A stretch of DNA of 64,000 nt, from positions 7,712,001 to 7,776,000 of the forward strand of contig CP086569.2 of the NCBI GenBank assembly GCA_009914755.4. Reading direction: 5' to 3'. The notes beneath the pieces were generated by a model, which was not told where the DNA came from, searched no databases, and was given only the letters and a program-made list of their open reading frames with translations. The position numbers and the translations under genes are program-made. The first letter of the stretch is position 1. Every line of letters begins with the position of its first letter. The DNA comes from the human T2T-CHM13v2.0 reference genome, Homo sapiens. Of this stretch, positions 15,480 to 24,755 are shown one piece after another.

Positions 15480-17105
15480 CTGAACATCAGGGTAATGTGA
15501 CTCAAGCAAAAATAAAAATAAATATTCAAGAATCAATTATTCAAAATTAAGATGGGAAAATTACTTGAGACAATCAGATTTAAATTATAGATCTATGTTT
15601 TAAAAGAAAAAAATAAATTATCCTAAACAATCAAAATTACCATCTCAATGATACTCAGAGAGTAAAATGGAAATAAACAAAACAAAATAAAAGAACAAAA
15701 ATATTTCAGGCAAAAAGAGAAGAGATTGACATAGTTAAAACACATTTTAAAAAAAGTCTAAGCAAAACACTGTATCCAGCTATTGTATCCTTCAAAATAA
15801 TAATAAAAAAATCTAACTACATCATGATCTATATCAAGATTTAATCACATCATGGCTTCAAGAGACTCACTTCAGAGCTAATAAAAAAAAAAGAAACTGA
15901 AAATGCCAGGATGAAAAATAAATTCCATGCAAGCATTAACAAAATGAAATGAGAAAAGGCTACAATTTATTAAGTTGACAACTGTCATATTTAATAAAAT
16001 TTACTTTTAGCCAAATTTTACAAGAGACACAGTAGGACATTCAATTATAATAAAAAGGTTCATTCACTGAGAGCCTATACATATATTACTGTTTTCCCAA
16101 ACACATGAAGGAAACATTGACAGAATTGATGCCAAAATAGTAATATAATAATGGATGCATACATCAATATCTCACTTTCAGTAAAAAATAAACAAGGCAG
16201 AATATTAATAAGGAAACAATAATTGAAGGCACTATAAAATAACTGCACTTAATAAATGTATACAGACAACAGAATACACATCCTTTTCAATAGCTCATAA
16301 AACATTTTCCTACACAGACCATCTGTGACACCACAAAAGAAGTCTTAACAATTTTTTAATTGAAATTTTACAGTTATTTACAGACCAAATGGAATGAAAC
16401 TAGAAATCAGTAAAAGAAGAAAAGCTGAACAATTTAAAGAATAAAATATTAAAATACAGTTTTTTTTCTTTTTTTAATTTCTTTTCTGATGGAGTATCAC
16501 TCTGTTACTAGGTTGGAGTGCAGTGGCACAATCTCAGTTCACTGCAACTTCCAGTTTCCGGGGACAAAGGATTCTTCTTCTTCAGTGTCCCAAGTTACTG
16601 GAACTACAGGCATGTACCACCACACCCAGCTAATTTTCTGTATTTTAGTAGAGATGCGGTTTTATCATTTTGCCCAGAATTTTCTCTATCTCCTGATTTC
16701 TCCTTGCATCATCCTTGGACTCTCAAAGTGCTGGGATTACAGTCATGAGCCACCATGCTCTGCCAACAACACACTTTTGAGTAGGCTTTTTTTCAATGGT
16801 TGGAAGAAATAATATTGTGAAGATGTCCATATGCTTAAAGTGACCCAATGCTCAACATATCCCTTTTTAATTTTAATTATATTTTTCAATAATGGAAAAA
16901 ATAAAAGGATCTCAAGGGACTATGAAAAGCCTGACAATCTTGAAAAATAAGAAAAATATTGGAAGCCTTACACTTAACAATTTTCACACACACGCAAAAT
17001 CCTACAATAACCAAAGCACTTTGGTAGGGCTGTAAAGGTAGAACACCAAAGTAATGAAACAGAATGCAGCACAGAAATAAACCCTTGAGTGCAGAAGGGA
17101 GATAT
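15480..17105 (+). mobile_element. Ancient L1 (L1M/L1PB-like) fragment covering the end of ORF1 and the N-terminal part of ORF2. It is interrupted by an Alu and ends at the start of satellite array 2.
   Basis: The + frame gives degraded L1 ORF2 N-terminus (…TSELIKKKETENARMKNKFHASINKMK‑EKATIY‑VDNCHI… matching ETHL..KDTHRLK.KGW..IYQANGKQKKAGVAILVSDKTDF). It continues at 16900–17100 (ILKNKKNIGSLTLNNFHTHAKSYNNQSTLVGL matching [30 protein letters not shown]). Confidence 0.7.
16460..16764 (-). mobile_element. Alu (older, diverged) inserted in the ancient L1
   Basis: Poly-T start, then '…gagtatcactctgttactaggttggagtgcagtggcacaatctcagttcactgcaacttccagtttccgggg…ctcaaagtgctgggattacagtcatgagccaccatgctctgcc'. 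Confidence 0.85.
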
Positions 17106-17561
17106 ACCATCTAGGTTTTGCAATCAATCGTATATCACAATTCCTTTGGTGAACAGTACCAGGCAGGGGAGGAGAATAACATTACCTAGATGCTAGTTTC
17201 AGCGATATTTTAAAATGTCCTTGGGGGCAGGGCACAGGCTGCAGAGACATATCACCTAGCTGATAGGCCCAGATATATGTGATAATATCCCCTGTTGATA
17301 TGGCCCAGGCAGCAGAGTCACATTATTATTATTCTGACCCAGAGATATGTAATAATGCAGCCATGGGAAAAAAATAGAGCCAAAATCTCACAACACCTGG
17401 ATACTAGGCCCATTGACATGACACAATCTCAACATTTTTGAGGCTGACACCTTTAACTTTTAGCAGACAGTGTATATTAGAGTCACAATCTCACATGTGA
17501 GCTGGGTCAGTGTATGACACTCCCTACAACAACCAAGAGCTTTATAAAACCTGCATGAATG

Positions 17562-22958: not shown

Positions 22959-24755
22959 GTTTAGGACAATATGTAAGATTGTGAGTCCATATGATCACGT
23001 AGGCCACAAAGAGTCTCACTCTGTCACCCAGGCTGGAGTGCTGTGGCACGATCTCAGCTCACTGCAGCCTCTGCCCTATGAATTCAAGGGATTCTCCTGC
23101 CCAAGCCTCCCAATTAGCTGGGATTACAGGAGCCTGCCACCACACTTGGCTAATTTTTTGTGATTTTAGTAGAGATGGGGTTTCACCATCTTGGCCATAT
23201 GGTTCTTGAACTCTAGACCTTATGATCTACCTGCCTCAGCCTCCCAAATGCTGGGATTACAGGTGTGAGGACATTTTGAGATATCACTGAAACTAGCATC
23301 TAGGTAATGGAATTCACCTCCCCTGCCTGGGAACTGTTCACCAAAGGAATTGTGACATATGATTGAATGAAAACTTAGATGGTATGTCTCCCTTCCGCAC
23401 TCAAGGGTTTATTTCTGTGCTGCATTCTGTTTCATTACTTTGGTGTTCTACCTTTACAGCCCTACCAAAGTGCTTTGGTTACTGTAGGATTTTGTGTGTG
23501 TGTGAAAATTGTTAAGTGTAGGGCTTCCAATATTTTTCTTATTTTTCAAGATTGTCACACTTTTCATAGTACCTTGAGATCCTTTTATTTTTTTCTATTT
23601 TTGAAAAATATAATTAAAATTAAAAAGGGATATGTTGAGCATTGAGTCACTTTAAGTACATGGACATCTTCACAATATTATTTCTTCCAACCCTTGAAAA
23701 AAAGCCTACTCAAAAGTGTGTTGTTGGCAGAGCATGGTGGCTCATGACTGTAATCCCAGCACTTTGAGAGTCTGAGGATGATGCATGGAGAAATCAGGAG
23801 ATTAAGACAATTCTGGGCAAAATGGTAAAACCACATCTCTACTAAAATACAGAAAATTCACTGGGTGTGGTTTTTCCTGCCTGTAGTTCCAACTACTTGG
23901 GAGACTGAAGCAGAAGAATGCTTTGTCCCCAGAAACTGGAGGCTGCAGTGAACTGAGATTGTGCCACTGCACTCCAACCTAGTGACAGAGTGATACTCCA
24001 TCAATAAAGAAATTTTAAAAAAGAAAGAAAAACTGTGTATTTTAATATTTTATTTTTTAAATTGTTCAGCTTTTCTTCTTTTACTGATTTCTAGCTTCAT
24101 TCCATTTGGGCTGTAAATAATTGTAAAATTTCAATTAAAAAATTGTTAAGGCTTCTTTTGTGGTGTCACAGGTGGTCCGTGTAGGAAAATGTTTTATAAG
24201 CTATTGAAAAGGATGTGTATTCTGTTGTCTGTATACATTTATTAAGTGCAGTTATTGTATAGTGCCTTCAATTATTGTTTCCTTATTAATATTCTGCCTT
24301 GTTTATTTTTTACTGAAAGTGAGATATTGATGTATGCATCCATTATTATATTACTGTCTATTTTGGCATCAATTCTGTCAATGTTTCCTTCATGTGTTTG
24401 GGAAAACAGTAATATATTTATAGGTTCTCAGTGAATGAACCTTTTTATTATAATTGAATGTCCTACTGTGTCTCTTGTAAAATTTGACTAAAAGTAAATT
24501 TTATTAAATATGACAGTTGTCAACTTAATATTGTAACCTTTTCTCATTTCATTTTGTTAATGCTTGCATGGAATTTATTTTTCATCCTGGCATTTTCAGT
24601 TTATTTTTTTTAATTAGCTCTGAAGTGAGTCTCTTGAAGCCATAGTTAGATCGTGATATAGATCATGATGTAGTTAGTTTTTTTATTATTATTTTGAAGG
24701 ATACTATTGCTGGATATAGTATTCTTGCTTAGAATTTTTTCATGTGTTTTAAGGT
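22959..24755 (-). repeat. Inverted duplicate (arm B) of the segment at about 15735–17891 (arm A). It contains, in reverse orientation, satellite, an Alu (23003–23270, minus strand), the ancient L1 (23379–24755, minus strand) and an Alu (23725–24040, plus strand).
   Basis: The reverse complement of 22959–24755 aligns with 15735–17891. The same ancient L1 ORF is read on opposite strands (16886..17110 minus 'MVYLPSALKGLFLCCILFHYFGVLPLQPYQSALVIVGFCV…' versus 23379..23645 plus 'MVCLPSALKGLFLCCILFHYFGVLPLQPYQSALVTVGFCV…'). The same tailless Alu with the unusual 'ctaattgggagg' variant and 'gagactctttg(a/t)ggcc' junction is in both arms. I counted about 8 mismatches over about 215 bp (about 3–4%). 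The arms differ by about 325 bp in their satellite portion. Confidence 0.8.

What the first reader, a model, noticed from the sequence alone, without database searches (positions are those of the whole stretch)
15735..24755. Inverted segmental duplication inside array 2, with a head-to-head satellite junction at about 22,957
A segment of about 2.2 kb (ancient L1 + Alu + ancient L1 + about 450 bp satellite + tailless Alu + about 50 bp satellite; 15735–17891) recurs as its reverse complement at 22959–24755. Array 2 therefore reads forward, then abruptly reverse at about 22957 ('…gctgaatccaagtgtaagttt|aggacaatatgtaagattgtgagtccatatgatc…'), then forward again at about 24755. Both Alus are present in both arms, including the tailless Alu with the odd 'ctaattgggagg' variant. 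The duplication therefore post-dates both Alu insertions. I counted about 3–4% divergence by eye, so it is old but primate-specific. Arm B has about 325 bp less satellite than arm A. Inverted repeats 1.8–2.2 kb long separated by about 5 kb of satellite are the kind of substrate expected to mediate recurrent inversion of the intervening satellite block. They may be polymorphic in orientation between haplotypes.
Basis: seen in the sequence. Interest (0 to 1): 0.6.

Follow-up and report, generated by a model that had tools for sequence, protein, structure and literature searches.

The report
Old inverted duplication inside beta-satellite array
A 2.2-kb piece of repeat-rich DNA at the edge of a satellite array was copied in reverse orientation 5 kb further into the same array some 10-30 million years ago; it is a real but ordinary fossil rearrangement of a kind already known from satellite-rich human zinc-finger gene regions.

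Summary
Window 15735-17891 (arm A, 2157 bp) recurs as its reverse complement at 22959-24752 (arm B, 1794 bp). All six components are in the same order: L1 piece, Alu, L1 piece, satellite, tailless Alu, satellite.

Substitution divergence is 5.9% overall: 3-4% in the AT-rich L1 parts and 9-10% in the Alus and satellite. BLAST identities are 93.3% and 89.2%.

Arm B lacks 355 bp of arm A (17222-17576), with a 2-bp microhomology at that deletion. Arm A sits in its native context, so arm B is the derived copy.

- The satellite-to-arm junction (J1, 22958|22959) has a 4-bp microhomology, GTTT.
- The arm-to-satellite junction (J2) is at 24752|24753.
- There is no poly-A.
- The satellite phase does not continue across arm B, so the copy probably replaced some satellite.

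A paralogous outgroup contig shows 17 changes on arm A versus 18 on arm B, so the arms are sister copies that decayed independently.

The best explanation is a one-off replication or repair template-switch event, now a neutral relic.

The satellite is a diverged 70-71-bp beta-satellite-like array. It is arranged as two inverted blocks around a ZNF pseudogene, an architecture already described.

The suggestion of recurrent or polymorphic inversion could not be tested here. The longest identical tract between the arms is only 98 bp. Interest is low.

The parts
15735..17891 (+). Arm A, the parental copy, 2157 bp. It comprises L1 ORF1-end/ORF2-5' piece 15735-16459, Alu1 (minus strand) 16460-16766, L1 ORF2 piece 16767-17093, the satellite edge of array 2 at 17094-17558, tailless AluS-like Alu2 17559-17839, and satellite 17840-17891.
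   Evidence: Alignment to arm B. The L1 endonuclease-region peptide of the window's own L1PA-like element matches 15894-16088 (z = 6.2) and 16859-17002 (z = 4.0). Native context on the right: five satellite paralogs align across 17891 without a break. Native context on the left: the same adjacency and orientation of the upstream L1 part (F) and this L1 piece is found in paralog L018.
17222..17576 (+). 355 bp present in arm A and absent from arm B: 337 bp of satellite plus the first 18 bp of Alu2. The deletion junction in arm B is at 23268|23269, with a 2-bp microhomology CT.
   Evidence: Global alignment. The stretch contains part of an Alu, so it is a loss or skip in arm B and not an insertion in arm A.
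17892..22958 (+). Spacer of 5067 bp. It is forward-oriented beta-satellite-like array with no Alu or L1.
   Evidence: It is collinear with array 1 positions 10685-6422 in reverse complement.
22959..22962 (.). Junction J1: GTTT is shared by the forward satellite and the reversed arm, a 4-bp microhomology.
   Evidence: Seven of the eight paralogous units read GTTT at this point (one has GCTT) and all eight then continue with forward satellite; here the sequence reads ..TAAGTTT|AGGACAATATG, which is the reverse complement of 17891-17880.
22959..24752 (-). Arm B, the derived inverted copy, 1794 bp. Approximate sub-parts: satellite 22959-23010, Alu2 copy 23011-23269, satellite 23270-23395, L1 piece 23396-23723, Alu1 copy 23724-24031, L1 piece 24032-24752.
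   Evidence: Polarisation against outgroup L018 gives 17 changes derived on arm A and 18 on arm B.
24752..24753 (.). Junction J2: the arm ends ..GTGTTTTAA and the satellite resumes GGTTTTACATGATATACCTGAG. Microhomology is 0-3 bp, because the ancestral target sequence is unknown.
   Evidence: Six paralogous units are mutually homologous for at least 60 bp upstream of this point; arm B's flank is not.
21639..22962 (+). Satellite unit U1, ending at J1. It is a paralog (75% identity) of unit U2.
24753..26192 (+). Satellite unit U2, starting at J2. It restarts at the phase where U1 began. In other units the J1-equivalent point is followed by about 2.0-3.5 kb of satellite before the next J2-equivalent point.
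   Evidence: no paralog spans the excised junction; landmark positions.

Best explanation
This is a fossil inverted intrachromosomal duplication in primate, almost certainly human, DNA.

Arm A (15735-17891) lies where an old, Alu-interrupted L1 remnant meets the left edge of a diverged beta-satellite-like array. Arm A was used once as a template. An inverted copy of it was joined into the same array 5.07 kb downstream.

The copy runs from template position 17891 back to 15735. It joins forward satellite at J1 through a 4-bp microhomology (GTTT) and rejoins forward satellite at J2. It lacks 355 bp internally, at a 2-bp microhomology.

The satellite phases at J1 and J2 are not contiguous. The copy therefore most likely replaced a stretch of satellite rather than simply being inserted (inferred).

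The most likely mechanism is replication- or repair-coupled template switching of the FoSTeS/MMBIR or synthesis-dependent type, with two or three switches within about 10 kb (inferred).

Since then both arms have decayed neutrally and at equal rates, to about 6% substitution divergence. That puts the event roughly 10-30 Myr ago, after the AluS-like insertion.

The duplication has no evident function. Its only plausible activity is as a weak substrate for inversion of the 5.07-kb spacer.
For: **Shown**
- The alignment is collinear through six different components at 93.3% and 89.2% identity.
- Substitution divergence is 5.9%, K2P 0.062, with 17 indel events.
- Against the paralogous outgroup contig L018 (83% identical to both arms) there are 17 changes derived on arm A and 18 on arm B. 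The arms are sister copies with clock-like decay.
- The right end of arm A is continuous with five satellite paralogs.
- At J1, eight paralogs continue in forward satellite after the shared GTTT (GCTT in one), whereas here the sequence turns into the reverse complement of arm A.
- At J2, six paralogs share upstream sequence that arm B's flank lacks.
- The upstream L1 part (F) followed by this L1 piece, in the same orientation, also occurs in paralog L018. In L038/L032 the L1 runs on through the equivalent of 15715-15760. The left end of arm A is therefore native.
- No paralog spans the junction when arm B is excised. The satellite restarts at the phase of 21639, which corresponds to array 1 position 7808.
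- There is no poly-A at either end of arm B.

**From the literature**
- Mosaic inversion structure in BSat arrays is described in T2T-CHM13 (PMC9186530).

**From my own knowledge**
- FoSTeS/MMBIR events typically show 2-5-bp junction microhomology, nearby templates and inverted segments.
Against: - The mechanism is inferred from the junctions alone. End joining of a broken, copied fragment would leave the same signature.
- The microhomology at J2 cannot be determined without the ancestral target sequence.
- A 4-bp GTTT also occurs just right of J2 (24754-24757), so a short target-site duplication cannot be excluded.
- The evidence that L1 homology continues left of 15735 rests on about 20 A/G-rich bases. 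The shuffle test for ORF1 similarity was not significant (z = 0.4).
- Divergence is uneven: 3-4% in L1 and 9-10% in Alu and satellite. Base composition explains most of this but not clearly all. Some arm-to-arm gene conversion, and hence an older event, is possible.
- 'Replacement of satellite' is an inference from phase. An older U1|U2 junction at exactly this place is not excluded.
Confidence: 0.6

Rival explanations
1. Inversion with staggered breaks. In this model the segment 15735-22958 was inverted, and the region between staggered nicks was filled in on both sides. That leaves inverted duplicates flanking an inverted spacer. Arm B's junction with the satellite at J2 would then be ancestral, and the junction at 15734|15735 would be the new one.
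For: - The layout [a][M][rc a] is what this model produces.
- A sister duplicon (metagenome contigs L038 and L032) shows exactly such a layout around the same L1, with arms 91% identical.
- The window's L1 has an internal deletion junction at 15702-15715, only 20-33 bp from the arm boundary.
Against: - The model requires that the inversion happened to place the upstream L1 part (F) and this L1 piece back in the same orientation and order. That same order and orientation is already found in paralog L018.
- L038/L032 align to 15715-15734, just left of the boundary.
- Six paralogs show that the satellite to the right of J2 is truncated there.
Confidence: 0.08
2. An ancient rearrangement kept young-looking by gene conversion. 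In this model arm B arose together with the U1/U2 satellite duplication, whose copies are now 75% identical. Arm-to-arm conversion then held the arms at about 94% identity and also carried Alu2 across.
For: - Arm B sits exactly between two tandem paralogous units, U1 and U2.
- Divergence is uneven along the arms. Stretches at 1.3-2.7% (15885-16334) and at 2.0% (16935-17084) lie next to stretches at 9-12%.
- The Alu1-to-L1 divergence ratio is higher between the arms than between either arm and L018.
Against: - Derived changes are balanced between the arms (17 versus 18) and spread along the L1.
- Base composition explains most of the unevenness.
- The longest identical tract is only 98 bp, so there has been no recent conversion.
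- Placement between U1 and U2 is equally explained by replacement of the satellite between two in-register units.
Confidence: 0.12
3. Retrotransposition-related origin: L1 twin priming, or reverse transcription of a read-through transcript of arm A inserted at an L1 endonuclease site.
For: - Arm B ends in TTTTAA at J2, which resembles the L1 endonuclease target.
- GTTT occurs on both sides of arm B.
- Most human inversions under 2 kb arise by twin priming (bioRxiv 10.1101/2021.12.20.472354).
Against: - There is no poly-A tail at either end.
- The TTTTAA belongs to the copied sequence itself (15735-15740).
- The insert is not the 3' end of an L1. It is a mosaic of decayed L1, two Alus in opposite orientations and satellite.
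- The satellite phase is discontinuous across the insert.
Confidence: 0.03
4. Assembly artefact: a collapsed or misjoined read in a satellite region produced a false inverted copy.
For: - Satellite regions are prone to misassembly.
- No independent sequence containing J1 or J2 was found.
Against: - Artefactual duplicates are nearly identical to their source. These arms differ by 105 substitutions and 17 indel events, with changes equally derived on each arm relative to an outgroup.
- The collections scanned are microbial or metagenomic, so the lack of hits carries no weight.
Confidence: 0.02

Closest known systems
Inverted beta-satellite blocks bounding ZNF genes in human 19p12 (Eichler et al. 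1998, Genome Res 8:791). The reference is listed in PMC8125562. The paper itself is not held, so its content is recalled from my own knowledge.
   Same: - Two large blocks of a diverged 70-71-bp satellite lie in opposite orientation: 2303-12663 reversed and 17094-40400 forward.
- They surround a KRAB-ZNF-type finger array with an 84-bp period and a consensus encoding [20 protein letters not shown].
- The spacing of landmarks in the two blocks is nearly mirrored.
- Paralogous duplicons about 80% identical exist elsewhere.
   Different: - The finding is a much smaller and younger event (2.2 kb, about 6% divergence) nested inside one block.
- Assignment of this window to 19p12 was not tested.
Mosaic inversion structure of BSat and HSat arrays in T2T-CHM13 (PMC9186530)
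   Same: A satellite array whose reading direction switches locally.
   Different: - Here only about 180 bp of satellite is reversed.
- That satellite was carried passively inside a copied flank segment made of L1 and Alus.
- This is not a strand switch of the array itself.
Template-switch rearrangements (FoSTeS/MMBIR) that produce inverted duplications; named as mechanisms in PMC11794170
   Same: - The template is nearby, 5 kb away.
- The copy is inverted.
- Junctions carry 2-4 bp of microhomology.
- There is an extra internal skip of 355 bp.
- There is no poly-A.
   Different: - This is an evolutionary fossil inferred from a single haplotype.
- The ancestral target sequence is unknown.
- No triplication or flanking copy-number gain can be assessed.
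Inverted-repeat-flanked (NAHR) inversions and inversion toggling (bioRxiv 10.1101/2021.12.20.472354)
   Same: Inverted repeats longer than 200 bp flank a spacer of about 5 kb. This is similar in scale to L1-pair-flanked inversions, whose median size is 5.6 kb.
   Different: - The arms are 94% identical, against a median of 97.2% for L1 pairs.
- They are 1.8 kb long, against >=10 kb for most recurrent loci.
- No inverted allele has been observed.

Membership tests
Segmental duplication (conventional definition: >=1 kb and >=90% identity; PMC11794170) | Length of at least 1 kb | tested here: met
   The arms are 2157 bp and 1794 bp, with 1782 aligned positions.
Segmental duplication (conventional definition: >=1 kb and >=90% identity; PMC11794170) | Identity of at least 90% | tested here: met
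   Identity counting substitutions only is 94.1%. BLAST blocks are 93.3% and 89.2% with gaps counted.
Beta satellite (Sau3A family, 68-bp monomer; PMC8125562) | Tandem monomers of about 68 bp | tested here: inconclusive
   Autocorrelation peaks at 70-71 bp in all four array segments and not in a control. Tandem Repeats Finder reports nothing, because the copies are too diverged.
Beta satellite (Sau3A family, 68-bp monomer; PMC8125562) | Sequence match to the beta-satellite consensus | not testable with these tools
   No repeat library (Dfam or Repbase) is available. The resemblance of motifs such as ATATGTCACAATG and CATCACCTAGGTGCTGGGCC is recalled from memory only.
Beta satellite (Sau3A family, 68-bp monomer; PMC8125562) | Higher-order repeat organisation | tested here: inconclusive
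   Long-range periodicities of about 1.75 kb and 4.7 kb exist, but at only 65-79% identity. Classical higher-order repeat arrays are far more homogeneous.
19p12-type inverted beta-satellite/ZNF duplicon (Eichler 1998) | Satellite blocks in inverted orientation around a ZNF unit | tested here: met
   
19p12-type inverted beta-satellite/ZNF duplicon (Eichler 1998) | Map position in 19p12 | not testable with these tools
   No human reference genome is available in the tool set.
FoSTeS/MMBIR-type template-switch product | Microhomology at the breakpoint junctions, with no long homology | tested here: inconclusive
   J1 has a 4-bp GTTT. The internal skip has a 2-bp CT. J2 has 0-3 bp, because the ancestral target is unknown.
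FoSTeS/MMBIR-type template-switch product | A nearby template copied, possibly in inverted orientation | tested here: met
   The template lies 5067 bp upstream and was copied in reverse complement.
L1-mediated insertion or twin-priming inversion | Poly-A tail and a target-site duplication of 7-20 bp | tested here: not met
   There is no poly-A at either end. Only an ambiguous 4-bp GTTT is present.
Recurrent (toggling) NAHR inversion locus | [quoted passage not shown] | tested here: met
   The arms are 1.8-2.2 kb.
Recurrent (toggling) NAHR inversion locus | Long (mostly >=10 kb), highly identical flanking repeats | tested here: not met
   The arms are 1.8 kb and 94% identical, and the longest identical run is 98 bp.
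Recurrent (toggling) NAHR inversion locus | Both orientations observed among haplotypes or species | not testable with these tools
   No other haplotype could be retrieved.

The most novel reading that the evidence does not exclude
The arm pair is still a working recombination substrate, and the 5.07-kb satellite block between the arms exists in both orientations among human or ape haplotypes. Together with the independent inverted duplication around the same L1 in a sister duplicon (L038/L032), this would mark these ZNF/beta-satellite duplicons as recurrent small-inversion hotspots.
Probability: 0.1. Interest if true: 0.35.

Novelty: new member of a known kind. Interest (0 to 1): 0.15.

Why it matters
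It matters little on its own. The finding adds one dated, breakpoint-resolved example of how non-satellite flank sequence is copied in reverse into a satellite array. It shows a microhomology-type junction at one end (J1) and probable replacement of satellite.

It is useful as a marker. The presence, absence and orientation of arm B could date and phase rearrangements of this ZNF/beta-satellite duplicon across apes and across human haplotypes. It is also a caution for repeat annotation and read mapping in this region.

If the spacer proved polymorphic in orientation, it would be a small addition to the catalogue of inversions flanked by inverted repeats.

Tried and rejected
- **Rfam scan of the window:** no hit at gathering thresholds.
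- **Tandem Repeats Finder on the arrays:** nothing found for the satellite, because the copies are too diverged. The period was obtained by autocorrelation instead.
- **Proving that the L1 continues left of 15735:**
  - The PDB search with stops masked gave no L1 hit.
  - nhmmer, blastn and Smith-Waterman against the window's own L1PA-like element were significant only for the ORF2 part.
  - Similarity to the ORF1 C-terminus across the boundary was not significant by shuffling (z = 0.4). No ORF1 signal was found further upstream.
  - The question was settled instead, moderately well, through paralogous contigs fetched with an L1 17-mer.
- **Idea that arm B's outer flank (24753-24960) is homologous to the upstream L1 part, as at L018's junction:** rejected (z <= 0.7).
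- **Simple insertion with continuous satellite:** rejected, because no paralog spans the excised junction.
- **Tandem duplication of U1/U2 in the same event as arm B:** rejected, because U1 and U2 are 75% identical and the arms are 94% identical.
- **Exact-match scans for J1 or J2:** none found in genome contigs, metagenome contigs or viral contigs.
- **Eichler 1998:** could not be read.
- **Alu subfamily assignment:** used consensus sequences written from memory, so it is only indicative.
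Full report
**1. The observation**

The inverted repeat exists as described. The repeat finder returns five collinear inverted blocks between 15968-17891 and 22959-24530. 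blastn of 15000-18500 against the window gives two hits:
- 15735-17221 against 24752-23268 at 93.3% over 1498 columns;
- 17577-17891 against 23269-22959 at 89.2%.

Nothing else in the window approaches this; all other hits are at 65-83%.

A global alignment fixes the limits. Arm A is 15735-17891 (2157 bp) and arm B is 22959-24752 (1794 bp).

Arm B lacks arm A's 17222-17576. That is 355 bp: 337 bp of satellite plus the first 18 bp of the second Alu. A 2-bp CT is shared at the deletion edges.

Both Alus are in both arms.
- Alu1 (16460-16766, minus strand) keeps its L1 flanks on both sides in both arms.
- Alu2 (17559-17839, plus strand) ends at the same truncated position, GAGACTC, with no A-tail. 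It carries CTAATTGGGAGG in both arms and keeps the same 52-bp satellite flank.

**2. Divergence and age**

Counting substitutions only, the arms differ at 105 of 1782 aligned sites. That is 5.9%, or K2P 0.062, plus 17 indel events. Divergence is uneven:

| Component | Divergence |
|---|---|
| First L1 piece | 3.2% |
| Alu1 | 8.8% |
| Second L1 piece | 4.0% |
| Satellite | 9.6% |
| Alu2 | 10.4% |

Most of the unevenness follows base composition: G/C-involving sites carry almost all of the changes. A modest residual remains, which I leave unexplained. Weak past arm-to-arm conversion in the L1 part is possible.

A metagenome contig that is evidently a human-like paralog provides an outgroup. L018 is 83% identical to both arms and shares Alu1. 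Against it, 17 changes are derived on arm A and 18 on arm B. The arms are therefore sister copies that have decayed independently and at equal rates.

- With 0.031 substitutions per lineage and 1.2-2.2e-9 per site per year (rates from my own knowledge), the event is about 14-26 Myr old.
- Scaling to the divergence from the paralog gives 10-20 Myr, if the duplicon expansion is about 50 Myr old (recalled from Eichler 1998).
- Alu2 is AluS-like and about 10-11% diverged from consensus at non-CpG sites. The consensus was written from memory. This fits an insertion before the duplication.

**3. Which arm is the source**

On the right, five satellite paralogs align straight across 17891|17892. Arm A's right end is therefore native.

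At J1, seven of the eight paralogous units read GTTT (one has GCTT) and all eight then continue with forward satellite. Here the sequence turns into the reverse complement of arm A after GTTT.

At J2, six paralogous units share at least 60 bp of upstream sequence that arm B's flank lacks. The satellite is therefore broken there.

On the left, the region 14426-15702 is an older L1 part, called F here. It also occurs inverted at 1339-2309.
- In paralog L018, F is followed by the same L1 piece in the same orientation.
- In L038/L032, the L1 runs continuously through the equivalent of 15715-15760.

Direct tests for L1 ORF1 similarity across 15735 were not significant. The evidence for the last 20 bases left of the boundary is therefore modest.

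An inversion model would require the event to have restored L1 order and orientation by accident. I therefore take arm A as parental and arm B as the copy.

**4. What happened at the target**

If arm B is excised in silico, no paralog aligns across the scar. The satellite left of J1 ends at a landmark whose equivalents lie at:
- 18307, 26192, 27941, 31705 and 35332 in array 2;
- 6442, 11148 and 4939 in array 1.

The satellite right of J2 restarts at a different landmark, with equivalents at 21639, 30349, 33682, 38801, 7819 and 3450.

Elsewhere the first landmark is followed by about 2.0-3.5 kb of satellite before the second. Arm B is thus bracketed by two tandem paralogous units, U1 (21639-22962) and U2 (24753-26192). 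These are only 75% identical, so they are far older than the arms.

The reading that needs no coincidence is that the inverted copy replaced the satellite that lay between U1 and U2. The alternative is that an old U1|U2 junction happened to be hit. That cannot be excluded from one haplotype.

**5. Mechanism**

The signature is as follows:
- a template 5 kb away;
- an inverted copy;
- a 4-bp microhomology at J1;
- 0-3 bp of microhomology at J2;
- an internal 355-bp skip at a 2-bp microhomology;
- no poly-A;
- at most a 4-bp ambiguous direct repeat.

This fits replication- or repair-coupled template switching (FoSTeS/MMBIR or synthesis-dependent repair). It does not fit retrotransposition. It also does not fit NAHR, because no homology existed at the target. 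This step is inference.

**6. Context**

The satellite has a base period of 70-71 bp and motifs that I recognise from memory as beta satellite. No repeat library was available to confirm this.

The window holds two blocks of the satellite in opposite orientation: 2303-12663 reversed and 17094-40400 forward. Their landmark spacing is nearly mirrored. Between them lie a decayed ZNF finger array (84-bp period, 12894-14313), L1 remnants and Alus.

This matches the inverted beta-satellite blocks around ZNF genes described for 19p12. That paper is cited in PMC8125562 but is not held, so its content is from my own knowledge. Mosaic inversions in BSat arrays are also reported for T2T-CHM13 (PMC9186530).

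**7. The inversion hypothesis**

In this window the spacer is in the original orientation (section 3). The arms are 1.8 kb long and 94% identical, and the longest perfect tract is 98 bp.

Published data (bioRxiv 10.1101/2021.12.20.472354) show the following:
- L1-pair-flanked inversions have a median size of 5.6 kb and a median pair identity of 97.2%;
- recurrence is driven by repeat length, with most recurrent loci having repeats of 10 kb or more.

A single NAHR inversion here is therefore conceivable, and recurrent toggling is unlikely. Neither could be tested. Exact-match scans for J1 and J2 in the three sequence collections found nothing. That result carries no weight, because those collections are microbial or metagenomic.

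**8. Verdict**

The feature is real, and the description is accurate apart from the divergence estimate and a few coordinates. It is an old, neutral inverted segmental duplication of a known kind in a known type of region. Interest is low.

Noticed in passing
L038:2585-4335 and L032:1-1350 (metagenome contigs JGIcombinedJ20147_1000289 and OUNP010052683.1): These contigs form a human-like sister duplicon, 72-84% identical to window 12.9-16.3 kb. It carries the same L1 piece in inverted orientation, bracketed by its own inverted repeat (arms 91% identical and about 730-750 bp, spacer about 930 bp). The layout is [a][rc M][rc a]. This looks like an independent inversion with flanking inverted duplication around the same L1.
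   Followed up: partly
window 15702-15748: Three different breakpoints fall within about 45 bp of this L1. They are the window's own internal L1 deletion of about 920 bp (junction 15702-15715), the arm A/B boundary (15735), and the junction of the upstream L1 part with this L1 piece in paralog L018 (equivalent to about 15748). This could be chance or a fragile A-rich stretch.
   Followed up: partly
window 2303-12663 versus 17094-40400: The two satellite blocks are inverted relative to each other at about 69-79% identity. Landmark spacing is almost mirrored: 3329/1377/1503/1489 bp in array 1, against 3332/1323/[arm B + 1439]/1749/2408 bp in array 2. Array 2 has one extra unit of about 1.4 kb exactly where arm B sits.
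   Followed up: partly
window 12894-14313: A decayed C2H2 zinc-finger array (84-bp period, consensus encoding ..[20 protein letters not shown]) with many frameshifts and stops lies between the two satellite blocks. It is a ZNF pseudogene.
   Followed up: partly
window 15139-15467: A much younger Alu, closest to my remembered AluY consensus at about 94% non-CpG identity. It has an uninterrupted 37-A tail and an apparent target-site duplication of about 13 bp. It lies 268 bp left of arm A and is absent from arm B.
   Followed up: no
window 40400-46900 (minus strand); also 1-1346 and 60338-62011: A nearly full-length L1PA-like element with long ORF1 and ORF2 remnants abuts the right end of array 2. 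Related L1 pieces (89-92% identical) lie at both ends of the window, one of them inverted.
   Followed up: no
window 34380-34622: A TA/CA-rich microsatellite of about 240 bp is inserted in one satellite unit of array 2. It lengthens that unit to about 1650 bp.
   Followed up: no
window 15735-17891 versus 22959-24752: Divergence between the arms is patchy. Stretches at 1.3-2.7% (15885-16334) and at 2.0% (16935-17084) contrast with 12% in 16485-16634, where differences are clustered and rich in transversions. Base composition does not fully explain this.
   Followed up: partly
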